This document shows positions 587 through 48,178 of a DNA stretch of 64,000 bases, piece by piece. Under the pieces are notes generated by a model, which saw only the letters and a list, made by a program, of their open reading frames with translations, was not told where the DNA came from and did not search any database. Positions within the stretch are counted from its first letter, which is position 1. Each line of letters opens with the position of its first letter. Made by a program: the position numbers and the translations under genes. Origin of the DNA: an uncultured Spirochaetota bacterium (GTDB lineage Bacteria > Spirochaetota > Spirochaetia > JAFGXN01); NCBI GenBank assembly GCA_944388995.1, contig CALXKN010000007.1, forward strand, positions 4,732 through 68,731, written 5' to 3'.

Positions 587-3500
587 GTCTGCCCGAATTA
601 TGTATCCGGCATAAAGCCGCTGTTGCCATCCTGACCGCCGTCGCTTTTTTGGCCGGCGTCCTCTCCTGGCGGGCGATGAATCAGGAGCTGATTCCCAACA
701 TCTCCATGCCGACGATTTACATCGCCATTCCCTATGAAGGCGCTTCGGCCGATCAAATCAACGACAAAATCACGAAAATTTTGGAAAATGAATTTTCGAC
801 AATGCCGAATCTGACGGAAATGACGGCGACCAACTTTTCGGGAGTTTCGCTGATGCTGCTGACCTTCGACGACTCCATCGATTTGTATACGAAAATCCTT
901 GATGTGCGCGAAGTCATCAATCAGAACAAAAGCCGGCTGCCGGAAGACATCCGAGAACCGATCATCGCTTTCGGAGGCGCTACCGACATTCCGATTTTTT
1001 CTTTCGCGATTATCAGCGACTCCGATTTCGAAGAGCTGGTTCGATTTGCCGAGGAAGAGTTGATTCCGGAACTCTCGCACCTGCACGGCGTCGCCGAGGT
1101 GGAAATCGACGGCTACAAACGGAGACAGGTCGACATTACGCTGAGGATGGACGATCTCTCGGCCAACGGTGTTTCGGCTCTCGAGGTGTTTGGCGCCCTT
1201 TCAACAAAATCGGTCTCCATTCCCGCCGGATACGCCACATTCCAAAAGAAAACAGTCAGTCTGAAAACGGTCTCCGAAAGCGCCGACCTTGAAGAAATTC
1301 GAAACATTATTGTCGGAAGCGCCAACGGAGCGCCGATTTACCTCGAAAATGTGGCAGATGTTGAATTGCGTTACAACGAAAAAAGCCGCGACATCACCAC
1401 CGACGGAAAAGAAGTCATCGTCGTCTCCGTTAAACGCCGTTCGGACGGAAACGCCGTTCAGATCATCGAGGAATCAAAGGAAATCCTGGCGGATTTCCGC
1501 GCCGCCAAAGGCAACAGCATCGATTTTCAAACGCTTGAAGACGACAGTACGATGGTCATCGATTCGATTAATTCAATCATTGAATCGGCTGTATTGGGAA
1601 TCGTCCTGGCGATATTAATCATTCTGCTTTTTTTGCGGGATACACGCTCGACGATCATTATCGGAACATCGATTCCGCTGAGTATCGTGTGCAGTATCAT
1701 CTGTATGAATGCGTTCGGCATCTCCATCAACTTTCTCAGCTTGTGCGGAATTACCGTCGCCCTGGGAATGGTTGTCGACAATTCGATTGTTGTTTACGAG
1801 AGTATTTTTACCCAACGCGACAAGGGAATGGATGCGGAAAAGTCGGCGGCCGAAGGAAGCCGCATCGTCGGCGGCGCCATTCTGGCTTCGACAACAACGA
1901 CAGCCTGCGTTTTTATTCCGCTGCTGTTTTTGGGAGGCATTGCCGGCATCTTTTTCAAAGATATTTCGCTGACGCTGGTTTTTTCGATTATCGCCTCGCT
2001 GGTCAGCGCCCTGACGGTTGTGCCGGCAATGTGCGCGCGGTTTCTGCGCGGCGAAAACCGTTTTAAACCGCCCCGTTTCCTGACGGTTGTCAGCGATTGG
2101 GTGGAAAACGGATTGCAGCGCCTCTCCCGGTTCTACGGAAACGCTTTGGAAACGGCCCTGACGCACCGCAAAACGGTTTTGGCGTTCGCCGTGCTGATTC
2201 TTGTCATCAGCGCATTACTAATCTCAATGATGGGCGTCATCTTCCTTCCGCCGACCGACTACTCCAACATCAAAATGGAAATGACGGTTCCCGGCAGTTA
2301 CACGTTTGAACAGTCGAAAGAAAAAGTCCGAGAAGTCGAAAATAAAATCGTTGAAATCATGGGAGAAGACTTAATGCGCCGTGTCTTCTTCGTCAACAAC
2401 GAACGCACCGACAACGTTTTTTTCATGAACGCAGCTCCCATTACCGCTACCCTCTTCCTGAAGCCGGTCGGAGAACGGGAAAAAGGAGCTTTGGAGTGGA
2501 TTGATGAGTTGGAAGAGGTGATCAGCGACGAAATTACCGACTGCGAAGTGGTTTTTACCAACGGAGGACTTGATTATCTGCTGCGTTACGTGACCGGAGG
2601 CGATAAAATCTACTCCGTCAGCATCGAAGGGAACGATTTGGATATCATGTACAAAGCTGCCGTTCAAATCGAGAATCTGATGAAACAGGATCCCGAAATT
2701 TACAAGACAAAAAAGAGTATGGATCTGGGGAGCAAAGAGGCTGTCATCCGTCTGGATCCCGACCGGATGGGAACGATGGGAATCGACAGCAAACAGGCCG
2801 CCTTTACGACGCGCATTCTCTTCAGCCGTACCAATGTCGGCGTTTTCAGTCAGAACGGAATGCTTTACGATATGTATCTGAGCAGCGATTACGGACAGAA
2901 ACCGATCACGCCGGAGTCGCTTGAAAACATTTATATCCGCAACATGATGAACGGATTTTCGGCGCTGGCCACCTTCTCCGATATCAGCTTTGAGAATGTC
3001 GCGACGAAAATCGACCGCAAAGACCGCAAGAATGTCATTACGATTACCGGTTTTGCCGACACAAACGATTTAAGCGGCATTCAGTCGCGCATGGACGCCC
3101 ATCTTGAGAAGATGAATCTCCCCTACGGCGTTTCATGGCAAACAACGGGAGCGGGAAAATTGGTCCAGGATATGCTGAAAGATGTTCTGCTGGCGCTCGG
3201 CGTTGCTATTTTTCTTGTCTACGCCGTCATGGTTATTCAGTTTAACCGTTTCAGTCAGCCGTTTATCATTCTGCTGTCAATTCCGTTCTGTCTCATCGGT
3301 GTTATTTTGGGACTGATGATTTTCGGTTCTCAAATTTCGCTGATTGCGCTGTTGGGAATCATCGCCTTGGCCGGCGTCGTCGTCAATAACGCCATCGTTT
3401 TGGTCGATTACATCAATTTTCTTCGGGATGAAAAAGGAATGGAGCTGCGTCCGGCCATCATTGCCGGTTGCCAAAACCGTCTGCGCCCGATTCTTATGAC

Positions 3501-4783: not shown

Positions 4784-4811
4784 CAAAAAAAGGCGGAGCC
4801 GAAGCTCCGCC
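4784..4811 (-). terminator. rho-independent terminator of the minus-strand lipoprotein gene
   Basis: Stem GGCGGAGC/GCTCCGCC (4792-4799 and 4804-4811) with loop CGAA, followed on the minus strand by a U7 tract (plus A7 at 4785-4791). Lies 10 nt downstream of the stop at 4821. Confidence 0.7.
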
Positions 4812-4820
4812 GATATGCGA

Positions 4821-5261
4821 TTAATTCAAATCGATTTTTTCCATTTTTTGTCCCCGATATTTCAGGGATTTAATGTTGACCGGCAAAGACAGCGCCGCGT
4901 TGATCTCCAAATCCGTTGAAGCATACAGCCAGTGTTCTTTGACGACGCCCGATTCGACAACCAGATAAGAGAGCCCCATCATGTTGTCGCCTTCCATCCG
5001 GACAATGATTTGACGCCGCTCTCCGTCGAAACCGATTCCCAGCTGCCAATTCTCGGCATCAATGAACTGCGTCCCTTCTACAAGATCATAGGCATATTCA
5101 TTTCCGCCGTCAAAAACGATTTTCTCATCGTCGATGGAAAACTTAATTTGTTTGTCCGACGAATCCGTCAATACGTATTTCCCTTCACCGAAATTGTTTT
5201 CCGTATCGGCGCATCCGAAAAACAGCGTTAAACTGACTAAAATGAATCCAAATTTCCTCAT
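4821..5261 (-). CDS. hypothetical lipoprotein
   Basis: Signal peptide with lipobox-like LFFGCADT. 146 aa. Last gene of the CsgG-like cluster. Confidence 0.6.
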   Translation of the reverse strand: MRKFGFILVSLTLFFGCADTENNFGEGKYVLTDSSDKQIKFSIDDEKIVFDGGNEYAYDLVEGTQFIDAENWQLGIGFDGERRQIIVRMEGDNMMGLSYLVVESGVVKEHWLYASTDLEINAALSLPVNIKSLKYRGQKMEKIDLN

Positions 5262-5272
5262 TCTGATACTCC

Positions 5273-6163
5273 TTATTTCATTTGTTTTTCAAGGCGTTTG
5301 ATTTGAGAAGCGGACAGCGAATCTCCCGCGCGGCGGCAAATGTATCCGGCTTCAATCACGGCATCTTTATAGGCTTTGAATTTACTTCCCGAAGGAACCG
5401 CGCACTTGGCAACCGATCCGGCAACTTCACCGACAGCCGCAACGGCGACCAACTCTTCCGCTTTTCCTAAAGACTGATTCGTGTAAGGATCGAAAATTTC
5501 CTCGCCCTGTTTGTAAATATTGATCAATTCTCCGACGGAAAATCCGACATTGGAAATGGTGATAATTCCGTTTGAAACCGACAGTACCAAAGGAGGATAA
5601 ACGCTTTCAATGATTTCCGCTGTCAGCTTATTGGAAAGCGTTTCCATGGCAACGGCAATCACATCATTCGCCGCTTTGGTTCCGCCGCCGGCAACGGTCG
5701 CCACCGTTTTGTCGCCTTCAAAAGTCTCCCTGATGTTCTCTTGAATCACAATCCGTCCGTCATTGACATCCAAAAATTTTAATTCCAGTCCGATGGTGAC
5801 CAGATCCTGTGTCGATCCGCCCAGTCCCAAGACACTGACCTCTTTGGAATCTTTTGAAAAATCAACGATTTTCGCCGTCAGCAAAAAGTCCAAACCGCTC
5901 ATCTGCGTCAGACTGCCCAACTGAGTCAGACTTTCCTGCATGATGCTGTCGATATCGCCGACATTCCGCGTGATGACCGTGAAGCGGTTGCTTTTCACCA
6001 ATGCGGCAGAGAGATACGACTCCAGCTTTTGGGCGGCTTCTTTCGCATCGGCGTTTTCGACAACCACTTTAACGGTATCCAGACCGATAACGGGCTTTCT
6101 TTCCTGTGCAAAAACGCCCAAAACACATCCGATCATCAAAAAAACAAACAAACTTCTCTTCAT
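5273..6163 (-). CDS. CsgG-like secreted lipoprotein, paralog 1
   Basis: Start chosen at MKRSLFVFL (ATG 6161-6163) with AGGAGG 8 nt upstream. Signal peptide with a Cys at residue 14. Shares architecture with the upstream paralog (ALVKSNRF..., DFLLTA, NDGRIV, C-terminal beta-rich module). Confidence 0.5.
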   Translation of the reverse strand: MKRSLFVFLMIGCVLGVFAQERKPVIGLDTVKVVVENADAKEAAQKLESYLSAALVKSNRFTVITRNVGDIDSIMQESLTQLGSLTQMSGLDFLLTAKIVDFSKDSKEVSVLGLGGSTQDLVTIGLELKFLDVNDGRIVIQENIRETFEGDKTVATVAGGGTKAANDVIAVAMETLSNKLTAEIIESVYPPLVLSVSNGIITISNVGFSVGELINIYKQGEEIFDPYTNQSLGKAEELVAVAAVGEVAGSVAKCAVPSGSKFKAYKDAVIEAGYICRRAGDSLSASQIKRLEKQMK

Positions 6164-6192: not shown

Positions 6193-7146
6193 TCAATATC
6201 CGAAGCGGGAACCCAATGCGTCCCGTTTCTTTTTCTCTTCATTGGTGATGTACTCCTGCTCATCATTCAAAGAAATTTTCTGACAGGAAAACCCTTCGTA
6301 AACATTGCCAGCATCCCCCTCCACCACCTCGGCAAAAGACTCTGTCGGACGCACCGTCGTGATTCTGACGCGAGCCACTTCATCGAATCCCAAATCGTTC
6401 AATTCGGCCATCTCTCCTTCAGGGAAAATTTTATAAATCTGTCCCTCTTCGATAAAACCAGCCCCGTAATTGATTTTAACGGAATCGCCGCTGACAGCCG
6501 TCACTTTAACCGGGTCAATCGCATTGGCGACCAAAAATCCGACTTGCAGCGCCGCTTTTCTCAGAACATCAGCAATGTAATTCTGTGAAGTTGACGCGCT
6601 GGCATAATTCTTGGTAGCGACAGGAGCCGCAATTTTTTGCTCCATATCAACAAATTCCGACATGACGATCCGTCCCGTCTGAGCGTCAATCAATTTGAAC
6701 GAGGCTCCGAAACGGAATGTTTTTGTTTCCTGAGAGTAACCTCTCGTCTTGATAATATTGGTATCGATCCCTGCCGTATCGACGGTCCCCGTCAGCAGAA
6801 AATGCACGCCTTTTAACTGCCCCGACTGCGCGGCCGTCTCCGGGTCGATCAATCCGGCGGCGCCCATTCCCTGTTCCTGAAGAAGAGCGTCCAAGCGGGA
6901 GCGTTCCAAACATTCAAAGCGTCTGGTCTTTACCAATGCGGTCGAGACCATATCAAGAAAAGAATCCATGGTAAACTGTGTTTCCGTCGGAACTTCTCCG
7001 AAAATCGTTTCCATATTGCCGACGGCATACGCCTTGTTTTCAAATTCGGCAAACCCGATTCGGATTCTTTCTTCCGGCTCTTCCTGTGAAAAGGCAGCAA
7101 AAGACAAAAAGAAAAGGCAAATACAAACGGCTGATTTTTTTCTCAT
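6193..7146 (-). CDS. CsgG-family (curli-assembly CsgG-like) lipoprotein, paralog 2
   Basis: Signal peptide with Cys. Motif string FAEFENK...TALVKTRRFECLERSRLDALLQEQ...SGQLKGVHFLLTGTV matches the CsgG-family pattern (F.VlER..L..ll.EQ...G..yLL.G.V). Confidence 0.55.
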   Translation of the reverse strand: MRKKSAVCICLFFLSFAAFSQEEPEERIRIGFAEFENKAYAVGNMETIFGEVPTETQFTMDSFLDMVSTALVKTRRFECLERSRLDALLQEQGMGAAGLIDPETAAQSGQLKGVHFLLTGTVDTAGIDTNIIKTRGYSQETKTFRFGASFKLIDAQTGRIVMSEFVDMEQKIAAPVATKNYASASTSQNYIADVLRKAALQVGFLVANAIDPVKVTAVSGDSVKINYGAGFIEEGQIYKIFPEGEMAELNDLGFDEVARVRITTVRPTESFAEVVEGDAGNVYEGFSCQKISLNDEQEYITNEEKKKRDALGSRFGY

Positions 7147-7171
7147 AAAGCACTCCTAAAAAAGATAGTGC

Positions 7172-7198
7172 ATTATAAAAAAAAAAAAAAAGAGTCAA
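7172..7198 (-). promoter_or_regulatory. sigma70-like promoter of the CsgG-like operon: -35 TTGACT, 15-nt spacer that is essentially a T15 homopolymer, -10 TATAAT
   Basis: Minus-strand read: TTGACT (7198-7193), T-tract (plus A15 at 7177-7191, first A shared with the -10), TATAAT (7177-7172). AGGAG RBS at 7153-7157 and ATG at 7146. Confidence 0.5.
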
Positions 7199-7216
7199 CG
7201 GTTTTTCCGGTAAAAG

Positions 7217-7240
7217 AAATTTTTTATAAAAAAATTTCAG
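7217..7240. promoter_or_regulatory. AT-rich near-perfect palindrome GAAATTTTTTATAAAAAAATTTC upstream of the -35 (possible UP element or regulator site)
   Basis: 23-nt inverted repeat with a one-base asymmetry, about 20 nt upstream of the -35 element. Confidence 0.3.
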
Positions 7241-7460
7241 AAAACAAACAATCCGTTCTGCGGTAAAATTGTCCGTCCGCAGGAAAAAAAGACAAAATAC
7301 CGGAAAAGATCGTTTACGGAGACGCTTACGCCGGAACCGGGAGTACGGACCGTGTAAAAAGGAACCCGGAGTTTCTCAGGGGAGACAGAGAAGCCCTGAC
7401 AGGAAGGTTTTAAGAACCGCTTCAAATTATTTTGAAACGGAGACGGCAGCCTCGTGTCTT

Positions 7461-47040: not shown

Positions 47041-47108
47041 GAAAAAAAGAAAGCAATCGGCCGTTTTTCGTTCTTCTCCCGCCTGGGGTCTCCTCAAAAA
47101 AAAAAGAG

Positions 47109-47155: not shown

Positions 47156-48178
47156 ATGAATCAAGGTCGTTTCTATACTTTAAAAAACAAAAACGGAACG
47201 GAAATCAAGCTGTTCGATTACGGCGCCGCGTTGGCGGGAGTCAGGGTTCCCGACAAAAACGGAAAATTTGACGATGTTGTTTTCGGCTTCGACGATTTGA
47301 AAGGATACGCCGAGTTTAACGACTTTTTCGGGTCGACAGTCGGACGGCACGCCGGAAGAATCGGCGGAGGACGCTTCGAAATCGACGGGAATGTCTTTCA
47401 GCTGGCGGTCAACAACGGAAAAAACCACCTCCACGGCGGCATCAAAGGATTCGACAAAGTTTTCTGGAACGCGCAGGAGTTGTCAACAAAAAAAGGGAAC
47501 GCCGTCAGTTTTTCATACCTGAGCCCCGACGGGGAAGAGCACTATCCCGGCAACTTAACCGTCACCACAGTCTACACGCTGACGGACGCCGACGAAATCA
47601 TCATCGATATGTACGCAGTAACGGACAAGGCTACGCCCGTCAATCTGACCAACCACACCTACTTTAACCTCTCGGGAGCCGGAAATCCGTCGATTCTCGA
47701 TCACCGGCTGAAGCTGAACTGTGACTTTTTTCTCCCCGGCGACGAAGGACTGATTCCGACGGGAGAAGTGGCGCCGGTCGACGGAACGCCGCTTGATTTC
47801 CGCGAATTCAAAGCCATCGGGAAGGAGATTGACGCCGATCATCCGTCAACGAAATTCGGCTCCGGATACGACCTGGCGTTTGTTGTCAACGGAAAAGGAA
47901 ACGAAACCGTCCACGCCGCGTCGGTCATCGACGATAAAAGCGGCCGCCGTCTCGATGTTTTCACAAACCAAAAAGCTCTCATCTTCTACACAGGCAATTT
48001 CCTGAAAGGTAATTTCAAGGCGAAGGACGGAAAAACCTACCCGAGACGCTCCGGATTCTGCCTGGAACCGGGCGCCTTTCCCGATTCGCCGAACAAACCG
48101 TGGTTTCCGGACATCATTCTGAAACCGGGCGAACTGTACCACAATCAGATCATCTTCCGTTTCGGGATCGAAAATTAA
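47156..48178 (+). CDS. galM: aldose 1-epimerase (mutarotase)
   Basis: Start at MNQGRFYTL with AGAGG RBS. Mutarotase blocks NHLHGG and FCLEPG. Confidence 0.85.
   Translation: MNQGRFYTLKNKNGTEIKLFDYGAALAGVRVPDKNGKFDDVVFGFDDLKGYAEFNDFFGSTVGRHAGRIGGGRFEIDGNVFQLAVNNGKNHLHGGIKGFDKVFWNAQELSTKKGNAVSFSYLSPDGEEHYPGNLTVTTVYTLTDADEIIIDMYAVTDKATPVNLTNHTYFNLSGAGNPSILDHRLKLNCDFFLPGDEGLIPTGEVAPVDGTPLDFREFKAIGKEIDADHPSTKFGSGYDLAFVVNGKGNETVHAASVIDDKSGRRLDVFTNQKALIFYTGNFLKGNFKAKDGKTYPRRSGFCLEPGAFPDSPNKPWFPDIILKPGELYHNQIIFRFGIEN

What the first reader, a model, noticed from the sequence alone, without database searches (positions are those of the whole stretch)
7172..7198. Promoter whose entire -35/-10 spacer is a T15 homopolymer, upstream of a surface-lipoprotein operon: candidate slipped-strand phase-variation switch
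On the minus strand a good -35 (TTGACT) and a perfect -10 (TATAAT) are separated by exactly 15 nt, and that spacer is an uninterrupted poly-T (plus-strand A15 at 7177-7191). The promoter drives two paralogous CsgG-like secreted lipoproteins and a third lipoprotein (7146 down to 4821). Homopolymeric tracts placed between promoter hexamers are a classic on/off or rheostat mechanism for surface structures (Bordetella fim, Neisseria, Mycoplasma vlp-type promoters). A 15-nt spacer is sub-optimal, so gaining 1 or 2 T's would strengthen it and losing T's would silence it.
Basis: partly seen in the sequence, partly recalled or inferred. Interest (0 to 1): 0.65.

Follow-up and report, generated by a model that had tools for sequence, protein, structure and literature searches.

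The report
Poly-T promoter spacer, candidate expression switch
A run of 15 T's fills the gap between the two halves of a near-perfect promoter in an uncultured gut spirochete; its length differs between strains, and relatives keep an equivalent poly-T or poly-G run, so it is probably a slippage-based expression dial of a kind already known in Treponema pallidum and mycoplasmas.

Summary
The minus strand 7198-7172 reads TTGACT-C-T15-ATAAT. The 15-nt spacer is C+T14, and the 15th T is the first base of TATAAT. This is the only homopolymer longer than 10 nt in the 64 kb window and the only TTGAC-N15-19-TATAAT match (0.02 expected by chance).

It precedes a compact three-gene operon: two CsgG/HfaB-family secreted paralogues and a small lipoprotein, followed by a terminator.

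In metagenome contigs of the same species the tract is T15 or T16. A sister species (81% protein identity, different upstream neighbour) has TTGAC-T17/18/19-ATAAT. Together these give spacers of 15, 16 or 17 nt.

Distant orthologues (39-49% identity) in unrelated genomic contexts again carry a homopolymer between consensus-like hexamers: T17, T12, G9 (G12 inferred) and G9/G10. One sampled clade has none.

This supports a tract-length-tuned promoter like T. pallidum tp0126 or M. hyorhinis vlp. High-frequency switching is untested. Near-identical strains from three samples all show T17, and ±1 calls in short-read assemblies carry some technical doubt. The first two proteins do not look like lipoproteins.

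Verdict: a new member of a known kind, of moderate interest.

The parts
7193..7198 (-). -35 hexamer TTGACT (5 of 6 matches to TTGACA)
   Evidence: TTGAC is conserved in lineage 2. TTGACA is present in groups B, C, D and E.
7177..7191 (-). T15 homopolymer (A15 on the plus strand). T14 of it plus the preceding C at 7192 make the 15-nt spacer, and the last T is base 1 of the -10 hexamer.
   Evidence: The length is T15 or T16 among same-species contigs. It is the only run longer than 10 nt in the window.
7172..7177 (-). -10 hexamer TATAAT (perfect consensus)
   Evidence: ATAATGC is conserved in lineage 2. One strain (L003) has the A at position 2 mutated to T.
7217..7237 (-). AT-rich near-palindrome AAATTTTTTTATAAAAAATTT, about 20 nt upstream of the -35. 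It could be an UP element or an operator.
   Evidence: It is conserved between lineages 1 and 2, while the sequence between it and the -35 is not. The function is inferred only.
7153..7157 (-). Shine-Dalgarno AGGAG, 6 nt before the ATG at 7146. The predicted transcription start lies near 7167-7163, giving a leader of about 20 nt.
   Evidence: The transcription start is inferred from the -10 position and was not measured.
6193..7146 (-). Gene 1: a 317-aa secreted CsgG/HfaB-family protein with an N-terminal CsgG/LpoB-like domain, a C-terminal beta domain and a C-terminal RFGY motif
   Evidence: (PF03783, 62.8 bits).
5273..6163 (-). Gene 2: a 296-aa paralogue of gene 1 (25% identity), starting MKRSLF. 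The ORF list extends it to a TTG at 6196.
   Evidence: (PF03783, 27.6 bits). The 296-aa gene call comes from public assemblies.
4821..5261 (-). Gene 3: a 146-aa protein with a lipobox-like LFFGC. It is present only in lineages 1 and 2.
   Evidence: It has no Pfam or NCBIfam hit.
4785..4811 (-). Intrinsic terminator: GGCGGAGC-TTCG-GCTCCGCC followed by T7, ending the operon

Best explanation
The T15 run is the body of the spacer of a sigma-70-type promoter (TTGACT, 15 nt, TATAAT). This promoter transcribes a three-gene operon: two CsgG/HfaB-family secreted paralogues and a small lipoprotein.

The run touches the -10 hexamer and lies one base from the -35 hexamer. Every gain or loss of a T by slipped-strand mispairing during replication therefore changes the hexamer spacing by one base. 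That rotates and displaces the two RNA polymerase contact sites relative to each other. Spacers of 15, 16 and 17 nt should give low, intermediate and high transcription, and shorter or much longer tracts should give none.

The result is a heritable but reversible dial for the amount of this envelope protein pair. It would act as an on/off switch at the extremes.

Shown here: the sequence architecture, its statistical singularity, length polymorphism among strains confined to spacers of 15-17 nt, and retention of a homopolymer (T or G) in the promoter spacer of orthologous operons in five of six sampled clades.

Inferred: the transcription start, the dependence of expression on tract length, and the switching rate.
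For: (1) Architecture. TTGACT-C-T14-TATAAT sits 25 nt upstream of an AGGAG-ATG and is a unique match in 64 kb, with 0.02 expected.

(2) Same species. Ten further contigs encode the identical gene-1 protein but differ by 2-8% over 7 kb. The tract is T15 in L005 and L006. It is T16 in L002, L004, L007, L008 and L010, and also in L018 and L019, which carry the 98%-identical variant. The two lengths do not follow the strain tree. Apart from a 3-nt indel at the rhodanese stop codon and two deletions private to L003, the tract is the only indel in an otherwise nearly invariant 320-nt intergenic region.

(3) Sister species at 81% protein identity, where the upstream neighbour is a 5S rRNA gene and its terminator rather than rhodanese. 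The promoter reads TTGAC-T17 (5 contigs), T18 (4 contigs) or T19 (1 contig)-ATAAT, giving spacers of 15, 16 and 17 nt. Three lengths occur among four contigs that share one flanking haplotype. Homology with the window begins only about 60 nt upstream of the -35, so the promoter module is what is conserved.

(4) Distant orthologues in non-syntenic contexts:
- P0003 clade: TTGACA-A-T17-ACATT, spacer 17.
- P0006 clade: TTGACA-ATTCG-T12-ATAAT, spacer 16.
- P0005 clade: TTGACA-AATTGAC-G9-TGA-TAGACT, with G12 inferred from the read-through gene call MTGGGGD.
- P0047 clade: TTGACA-TGC-G10 or G9-A-TAAAAT.
- P0078: an N-terminal read-through MGGGIIQQ implies poly-G abutting ATAAT.
In each representative locus the promoter tract is the longest homopolymer. 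Poly-T and poly-G clades are interleaved on the protein tree. What is conserved is therefore homopolymer character, not base identity.

(5) Precedent. The poly-G of T. pallidum tp0126 lies between the -35 and -10, and transcription is optimal when the spacing is 17 nt. T. pallidum tprL and the M. hyorhinis vlp poly-A promoters behave similarly (PMC7864442; PMC10502178).

(6) Other signs that the locus is sometimes inactivated in nature, compatible with (not evidence for) selection on expression: a -10 A-to-T mutant (L003), an IS110 element inserted between genes 1 and 2 (L045, L047), and split gene calls.
Against: No read-level data were available, so within-population heterogeneity, the defining property of phase variation, is untested.

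Three samples carrying an essentially identical strain (0-1 SNP in 2.65 kb) all give T17. A four-strain clade is uniformly T16. The consensus is therefore stable over short distances, and the data equally fit a slowly drifting polymorphism.

One-base differences in 15-19-nt homopolymers are at the limit of short-read assembly accuracy. The two very long tracts are probably artefacts: L009 reads T36-G-T18, 55 nt in total, which equals a common assembler k-mer size, and L028 reads T8-CA-T38.

The poly-G promoters as I read them have off-optimal spacers (19 nt and 14 nt), and the group C tract lies about 357 nt upstream of the ATG. Their assignment as the operon promoter is less secure.

One clade (P0049, L053) has no tract.

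No terminator separates the upstream rhodanese gene from the promoter, so read-through could supply tract-independent expression.

The transcription start is not mapped.
Confidence: 0.6

Rival explanations
1. The spacer is static. The promoter is real, but the T-run is simply a T-rich, rigid A-tract spacer kept for its DNA shape or melting properties. The observed T15/T16/T17 differences are slow, nearly neutral strain polymorphism within the tolerated spacing range of 15-17 nt, partly inflated by assembly error. No biologically meaningful switching occurs.
For: Identical tract length in three samples of the same strain and within a four-strain clade. Lengths are confined to the range where sigma-70 promoters still work. 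The very long variants look like assembler artefacts. One clade manages without any tract.
Against: Two clades use poly-G instead of poly-T at the same place, so a base-specific shape role does not explain the conservation. An uninterrupted run of 12-19 identical bases is kept in lineages whose surrounding intergenic DNA cannot be aligned. Tracts of this length are intrinsically slippage-prone; this rests on established knowledge of simple sequence repeats and was not tested here. Tract length does not follow the strain tree.
Confidence: 0.25
2. The T-run is not part of the operon's working promoter. It would instead be an UP-like or regulator-binding element, the U-tail of a terminator for upstream transcription, or part of a 5' leader transcribed from a promoter further upstream. 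In the last case a long U-run could cause transcriptional slippage.
For: The transcription start is unmapped. The 260-nt region upstream (7460-7199) is unusually conserved among strains and folds somewhat better than shuffles, z = -2.7. No terminator follows the rhodanese gene.
Against: No GC-rich hairpin precedes the T-run, and the terminator scan finds nothing there. The flanking hexamers are near-consensus and statistically unique. They are retained in five lineages, whereas the upstream 260 nt is replaced by a 5S rRNA gene and terminator in the sister species. No Rfam family matches.
Confidence: 0.07
3. The length variation is purely technical. The tract has one true length per species, and all differences arise from polymerase slippage in library preparation or sequencing, or from assembler behaviour.
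For: All data are short-read metagenome assemblies. The aberrant 48-55-nt tracts show that assemblers do mishandle this site.
Against: Calls are reproducible. L033, L037 and L038, the same strain from three samples, all give T17. L018 and L019 carry the same protein variant and both give T16; they come from different sources (ENA and Logan), possibly two assemblies of one sample (not checked). A four-strain clade is uniformly T16. The poly-G length difference G9 versus G12 is three bases.
Confidence: 0.08

Closest known systems
Treponema pallidum tp0126 (OmpW homologue) poly-G promoter, and the tprE/G/J/L poly-G promoters
   Same: Same phylum and probably the same genus-level group. A homopolymer lies between the -35 and -10 hexamers of a sigma-70-type promoter for an envelope protein, and transcription is optimal when the spacing is 17 nt (PMC7864442, citing Giacani 2015). 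Two clades of the present gene family use poly-G tracts of 9-12 nt, as T. pallidum does.
   Different: Here the tract is poly-T of 15-19 nt and fills essentially the whole spacer. The organisms are uncultured gut-type Spirochaetia/Treponema MAGs, not the pathogen. The gene products are CsgG/HfaB-like and unrelated to OmpW or Tpr. Nothing has been tested experimentally.
Mycoplasma hyorhinis vlp promoters (poly-A tract in the promoter)
   Same: A long A/T homopolymer lies in the promoter region, and single-base insertions or deletions switch transcription of envelope protein genes on and off (Citti and Wise 1995, as summarised in PMC10502178). From my own knowledge, not checked here: the vlp tract lies between the -35 and -10, with about 17 A as the ON length.
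   Different: A different phylum. The vlp genes are a multigene family of variable lipoproteins that also vary in size. Here there is a single operon with well-conserved proteins and no sign of antigenic diversification.
Neisseria porA/opc, Bordetella fim and Helicobacter sabA promoter homopolymers
   Same: From my own knowledge, apart from the listing for sabA: these are poly-G, poly-C or poly-T tracts in or beside the promoter spacer that give graded expression of surface proteins.
   Different: Those tracts are usually 8-14 nt and occupy only part of the spacer, or lie upstream of the -35 (sabA). All are in pathogens and have measured switching rates.
CsgG curli channel, Caulobacter HfaB, and Vibrio FlgT (the gene products)
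   Same: Pfam PF03783 scores above its threshold for both paralogues. Foldseek matches CsgG at E about 1e-7. The best full-length matches are FlgT (3w1e) and the LPHT-ring structure 8z5n, at E about 1e-14 to 1e-15.
   Different: No lipobox Cys. No curli or holdfast partner genes lie nearby. The match to CsgG at sequence-profile level is only E = 0.07. The TM-score to FlgT is only 0.33-0.35. The function is unknown.

Membership tests
Promoter-spacer simple-sequence-repeat phase-variation switch (tp0126, vlp or porA type) | A homopolymer long enough to slip (about 8 nt or more) | tested here: met
   T15 at 7191-7177. Relatives carry T12-T19 or G9-G12.
Promoter-spacer simple-sequence-repeat phase-variation switch (tp0126, vlp or porA type) | The tract lies between the -35 and -10 elements of the promoter that actually drives the gene | tested here: inconclusive
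   Near-consensus hexamers flank the tract, are unique in the window, and are conserved across lineages. The transcription start was not and could not be mapped.
Promoter-spacer simple-sequence-repeat phase-variation switch (tp0126, vlp or porA type) | Tract length differs among strains | tested here: met
   T15 or T16 in this species and T17, T18 or T19 in the sister species, giving spacers of 15-17 nt. The caveat is short-read assembly accuracy.
Promoter-spacer simple-sequence-repeat phase-variation switch (tp0126, vlp or porA type) | Length heterogeneity within a clonal population, with reversible high-frequency switching | not testable with these tools
   No reads were available. Same-strain samples give the same consensus length, which neither shows nor excludes minority variants.
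Promoter-spacer simple-sequence-repeat phase-variation switch (tp0126, vlp or porA type) | Expression level depends on tract length | not testable with these tools
   Inferred only from the general spacing rule for sigma-70 promoters and from tp0126 (PMC7864442).
CsgG/HfaB family (gene products) | Match to Pfam PF03783 above the gathering score | tested here: met
   62.8 and 27.6 bits against a cut-off of 20.8. NCBI names relatives 'CsgG/HfaB family protein'.
CsgG/HfaB family (gene products) | Lipoprotein signal peptide with a lipobox Cys, as in CsgG | tested here: not met
   No conserved Cys in the aligned signal peptides. P0033 has none at all. The conserved end is FSQE or FAQE.
Curli (Csg) secretion system | Neighbouring csgA/B/E/F-type genes | tested here: not met
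   The conserved unit is only the paralogue pair. Gene 3 and the other neighbours have no such domains.
FlgT (flagellar H-ring protein) | Overall fold match and a flagellar gene context | tested here: inconclusive
   Best Foldseek hits are 8z5n and 3w1e at E = 4e-15 and 2e-14, but the TM-score is 0.33-0.35 and identity is 14%. The model's mean pLDDT is 71. No flagellar genes are adjacent.
Intrinsic terminator (T-run as a U-tail) | A GC-rich hairpin immediately upstream of the T-run | tested here: not met
   The scan finds no terminator-like site at 7190-7230 on the minus strand, and the sequence shows only a 3-bp CGG/CCG pairing.

The most novel reading that the evidence does not exclude
A homopolymer-filled promoter spacer may be an ancestral regulatory module, maintained across the whole family, of this CsgG/FlgT-like gene pair in gut and rumen Treponema. 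Under this reading it has been kept through changes of genomic context and even through replacement of poly-T by poly-G. That would imply long-standing selection for stochastic, heritable switching of a periplasmic or outer-membrane ring-forming complex in commensal spirochetes, for example as a phage receptor or an immune or predation target. It would extend SSR phase variation from spirochete pathogens to uncultured commensals. It would also show that mutability itself, rather than sequence, is the conserved trait.
Probability: 0.4. Interest if true: 0.6.

Novelty: new member of a known kind. Interest (0 to 1): 0.45.

Why it matters
Phase-variable promoters are documented almost only in cultured pathogens. 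This locus offers a testable example in abundant, uncultured gut spirochetes.

It has an unusual comparative signature. The same operon keeps a slippage-prone homopolymer in its promoter spacer across lineages with 39-81% protein identity and different neighbours, and the base switches between T and G.

If confirmed, it marks the CsgG/HfaB-like (FlgT-like) protein pair as an envelope structure under fluctuating selection.

It also gives metagenomics a simple, countable marker of ON, low or OFF state per population, namely the tract length.

It is not a new mechanism. T. pallidum tp0126 and M. hyorhinis vlp already establish the principle.

Tried and rejected
(1) I scanned genome contigs with the gene-1 protein and with a 20-mer flanking the -35, and scanned metagenome contigs with the same 20-mer. 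Only chance matches turned up (Blastocatellia and soil contigs).

(2) I first read the 324-aa and 321-aa gene calls in the P0005 cluster as evidence for frame-shifting poly-G lengths. The DNA of L031 and L032 shows G9 in both, so those are merely different start-codon calls. Only P0029 (MTGGGGD) implies a different length, G12.

(3) I first took the conservation of an unbroken tract among same-species strains as evidence for selection. The whole 320-nt intergenic region is nearly invariant in these contigs, which were selected for having the identical gene-1 protein. Within-species purity of the tract is therefore not informative. The argument rests on the cross-lineage comparison instead.

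(4) The very long tracts in L009 and L028 are set aside as probable assembly artefacts.

(5) A terminator reading of the T-run is rejected.

(6) A known RNA family in the leader or intergenic region is rejected.

(7) L025 (P0004) and L017 (P0002) have too little upstream DNA to be informative.

(8) L030 shows different sequence upstream of a T9 tract, at a contig end. I could not decide between a real rearrangement and a chimera.

Full report
**1. What is in the sequence**

Read on the minus strand, 7198-7172 is TTGACT-C-TTTTTTTTTTTTTTT-ATAAT.
- The -35 hexamer TTGACT lies at 7198-7193.
- The perfect -10 hexamer TATAAT lies at 7177-7172.
- The two hexamers are exactly 15 nt apart.

One correction is needed. 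The spacer (7192-7178) is C+T14, and the fifteenth T doubles as the first base of the -10 hexamer. The consequence is unchanged: any change in tract length changes the hexamer spacing one-for-one.

The run is a clear outlier. The window is 51% GC. A/T run counts fall 54, 19, 1, 1 for lengths 7, 8, 9 and 10, and nothing else exceeds 10 nt. The pattern TTGAC-N15-19-TATAAT occurs once in 64 kb against 0.02 expected from shuffles. The generic promoter scan missed it only because it accepts spacers of 16-18 nt.

**2. The transcription unit**

- An AGGAG lies at 7157-7153, 6 nt before the ATG at 7146. A start site 5-9 nt after the -10 would therefore give a leader of about 20 nt. This is inferred, not measured.
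- Gene 1 (7146-6193, 317 aa) and gene 2 (6163-5273, 296 aa) both match Pfam CsgG, PF03783, at 62.8 and 27.6 bits against a cut-off of 20.8. They are 25% identical paralogues.
- Gene 3 (5261-4821, 146 aa) has no family match but carries a lipobox-like LFFGC.
- A strong intrinsic terminator (4811-4792 plus T7) follows.

In an alignment of six family members there is no conserved cysteine in the signal peptide, and one member has none at all. The conserved end is AFSQE or FAQE, which looks like a signal-peptidase-I site.

An AlphaFold model of gene 1 (mean pLDDT 71) matches E. coli CsgG at E about 1e-7. Its best full-length matches are Vibrio FlgT (3w1e) and the LPHT-ring structure 8z5n, at E about 1e-14 to 1e-15 but with TM-scores of only 0.33-0.35. 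The sequence-profile similarity to CsgG in the PDB is marginal, E = 0.07.

The products are therefore secreted envelope proteins with a CsgG/TolB-N/FlgT-like fold. Their function and surface exposure are unknown. NCBI labels relatives 'CsgG/HfaB family protein [Treponema sp.]' or '[Spirochaetia bacterium]', which places the organism among uncultured spirochetes.

**3. Same-species comparison**

The exact gene-1 protein is encoded on many metagenome contigs. L001 is the window itself, with 0 differences. Nine others differ from it by 137-560 SNPs over about 7 kb, which is 2-8%.

| Tract | Contigs |
|---|---|
| T15 | window/L001, L005, L006 |
| T16 | L002, L004, L007, L008, L010; also L018 and L019, which carry a 98%-identical protein |
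| T18-AAT | L003. This is T16 plus an A-to-T change at the second position of the -10 hexamer. L003 also has a TTG start codon. |
| T36-G-T18 | L009. The total is 55 nt, a common assembler k-mer size, so I treat it as an artefact. |

The two common lengths do not follow the strain tree. T15 occurs in three separate branches, while one four-strain clade is uniformly T16.

The 320-nt intergenic region is otherwise almost invariant in these contigs. This is expected, because they were selected for having an identical gene 1. Apart from a 3-nt indel at the rhodanese stop codon and two deletions private to L003, the tract is the only indel in it.

**4. Sister species**

Contigs encoding the 81%-identical orthologue (P0012 and P0013) carry the same three-gene operon. 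Their upstream neighbour, however, is a 5S rRNA gene with its terminator, not the rhodanese gene.

Homology with the window begins only about 60 nt upstream of the -35. The conserved elements are:
- an AT-rich near-palindrome;
- TTGAC;
- the T-run;
- ATAATGC;
- the leader and ribosome-binding site.

The C at 7192 is a T in this species, so the run reaches the -35 hexamer.

| Tract | Spacer | Contigs |
|---|---|---|
| TTGAC-T17-ATAAT | 15 nt | 5 |
| TTGAC-T18-ATAAT | 16 nt | 4 |
| TTGAC-T19-ATAAT | 17 nt | 1 |
| T16-AT | 16 nt | 1 |
| T8-CA-T38 | 46 nt (aberrant) | 1 |

Four contigs that share one flanking haplotype show T17, T18, T18 and T19. Conversely, three samples with an essentially identical strain (0-1 SNP in 2.65 kb) all give T17.

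The length calls are therefore reproducible rather than noise. The tract differs between strains at 1-4% divergence, but the population consensus is stable over short distances.

**5. Distant orthologues**

A profile search found about 30 clusters of this family. In every case the genomic context is unrelated to the window, and only the paralogue pair is conserved.

| Clade (identity to gene 1) | Promoter-like reading | Spacer |
|---|---|---|
| P0003 (49%) | TTGACA-A-T17-ACATT | 17 nt |
| P0006 (41%) | TTGACA-ATTCG-T12-ATAAT | 16 nt |
| P0005 (39%) | TTGACA-AATTGAC-G9-TGA-TAGACT | 19 nt |
| P0047 (40%) | TTGACA-TGC-G10 (G9 in two contigs)-A-TAAAAT, about 357 nt upstream of the ATG | 14 or 13 nt |
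| P0049 | no tract | n/a |

Further points on the poly-G clades:
- In the P0005 clade the true start codon lies downstream of the tract. A gene call that reads through the tract in another member (MTGGGGD against MTGGGD) implies G12.
- A read-through gene call in the very widespread P0044/P0073 cluster (MGGGIIQQ...) implies poly-G directly abutting ATAAT about 35 nt before the ATG.

In each representative locus the promoter tract is the longest homopolymer present. On the protein tree the poly-T and poly-G clades are interleaved.

A run of 9 nt or more occurs about once per 20 kb in the window. Its repeated placement inside a hexamer pair in front of this particular operon cannot be chance. 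Because the base differs between clades, what is conserved is the homopolymer character, not a sequence-specific site.

**6. Mechanism proposed**

This is a sigma-70-type promoter whose spacing is set by a slippage-prone homopolymer. Replication slippage adds or removes single bases and moves the promoter among spacings of 15, 16 and 17 nt. Established knowledge of sigma-70 promoters says these spacings give weak, intermediate and optimal activity, and that spacings outside this range silence the promoter.

The closest experimentally characterised case is T. pallidum tp0126. There a poly-G between the -35 and -10 gives optimal transcription at 17-nt spacing. The T. pallidum tpr promoters behave similarly (PMC7864442). 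The M. hyorhinis vlp promoters use a poly-A tract in the same way (PMC10502178).

My confidence by step:
- The tract lies within the working promoter: about 0.85.
- Length variants differ in expression: about 0.7.
- The locus undergoes genuine high-frequency, reversible switching within populations: about 0.5.

**7. What weakens the case**

- No reads were available, so there is no measure of within-population heterogeneity.
- All lengths come from short-read assemblies, which are unreliable to about ±1 nt for 15-19-nt homopolymers. They clearly fail at times (L009, L028).
- Same-strain samples agree with each other. This fits a slow polymorphism as well as a switch whose dominant state is selected.
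- The poly-G promoters as I read them have non-optimal spacings. One of them is far from the gene.
- One clade has no tract.
- No terminator separates the rhodanese gene from the promoter in this species, so read-through could contribute expression.

**8. Rivals**

- A static T-rich spacer with nearly neutral length drift is the main rival (0.25).
- Purely technical variation (0.08) is contradicted by the reproducibility of the calls.
- A non-promoter role, such as a terminator tail, a leader or a binding site (0.07), is contradicted by three things: no hairpin precedes the run, the flanking hexamers are conserved, and the upstream region is replaced in the sister species.

**9. Novelty and verdict**

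The kind of element is well known, including within Treponema. This is a new member of that kind.

The mildly new aspects are:
- the poly-T filling the whole spacer;
- the setting in uncultured commensal-type spirochetes;
- the association of a homopolymer spacer, T or G, with one conserved gene pair across the family.

Interest is moderate (0.45). The finding is a solid, well-supported candidate that can be tested directly from existing metagenomic reads.

Noticed in passing
window 7217-7237 (minus strand): An AT-rich near-palindrome, AAATTTTTTTATAAAAAATTT, lies about 20 nt upstream of the -35. It is conserved in the sister species (AATTTTTTAAAAAATT), while the sequence between it and the -35 is not. 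It could be an UP element or an operator for a regulator.
   Followed up: partly
window 7199-7460 (minus strand): The roughly 260-nt stretch between the rhodanese gene and the promoter is almost invariant among strains that differ by 2-8% in the flanks. As RNA it folds better than shuffles (z = -2.7). It matches no Rfam family and no terminator-like site. It is absent from the sister species.
   Followed up: partly
window 47096-47105: The second-longest homopolymer in the window (A10) lies immediately upstream of a TTGCCG-17 nt-TACAAT promoter-like site before an ATG at 47157. It may be another tract-adjacent promoter.
   Followed up: no
L045 and L047, 2616-3818: In some contigs of the P0047 clade an IS110-family transposase gene sits between the two CsgG-like genes. 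Other contigs of the same clade have the paralogue directly downstream.
   Followed up: no
L046 1281-1306: The long leader of the P0047-clade operon contains AAGGAGG-N7-ATG-TAA, a start-stop mini-ORF with a strong ribosome-binding site. Some contigs (L044) have a deletion there.
   Followed up: no
L003 about 2960-3003: One strain has the -10 changed from TATAAT to TTTAAT and the start codon changed from ATG to TTG. It also has a 20-nt deletion upstream. This may be a naturally weakened or silenced allele.
   Followed up: partly
L009 and L028, promoter tract: Two contigs have tracts of 48-55 nt interrupted by one or two bases: T36-G-T18 in L009 and T8-CA-T38 in L028. The 55-nt total equals a common assembler k-mer size, so these are probably artefacts. 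Real expansions are not excluded.
   Followed up: partly
L030 1-114: One 163-kb contig of the sister species ends 114 nt upstream of gene 1. It has unrelated sequence joined to a T9-ATAAT, so the -35 is replaced. This is either a rearrangement with its breakpoint in the tract or an assembly chimera.
   Followed up: no
L028, L029 and L033, upstream of the promoter: In the sister species the operon lies directly downstream of a 5S rRNA gene and its terminator. The G/T boundary and the T-tail length of that terminator (T7-T11) also vary among strains.
   Followed up: no
proteins P0103+P0104, P0097+P0100, P0075 (other clusters of the family): Gene 1 is called as two fragments, or truncated, on some contigs of other clades. 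This suggests frameshifts or pseudogenes, or sequencing errors, in natural populations.
   Followed up: no
window 6193-7146 (gene 1 product): All family members end in a conserved RFGY motif. The model has a long amphipathic beta-hairpin at residues 116-154. The best full-length structural neighbours are the Vibrio flagellar H-ring protein FlgT and the LPHT-ring structure, which hints at a ring-forming periplasmic or outer-membrane protein.
   Followed up: partly
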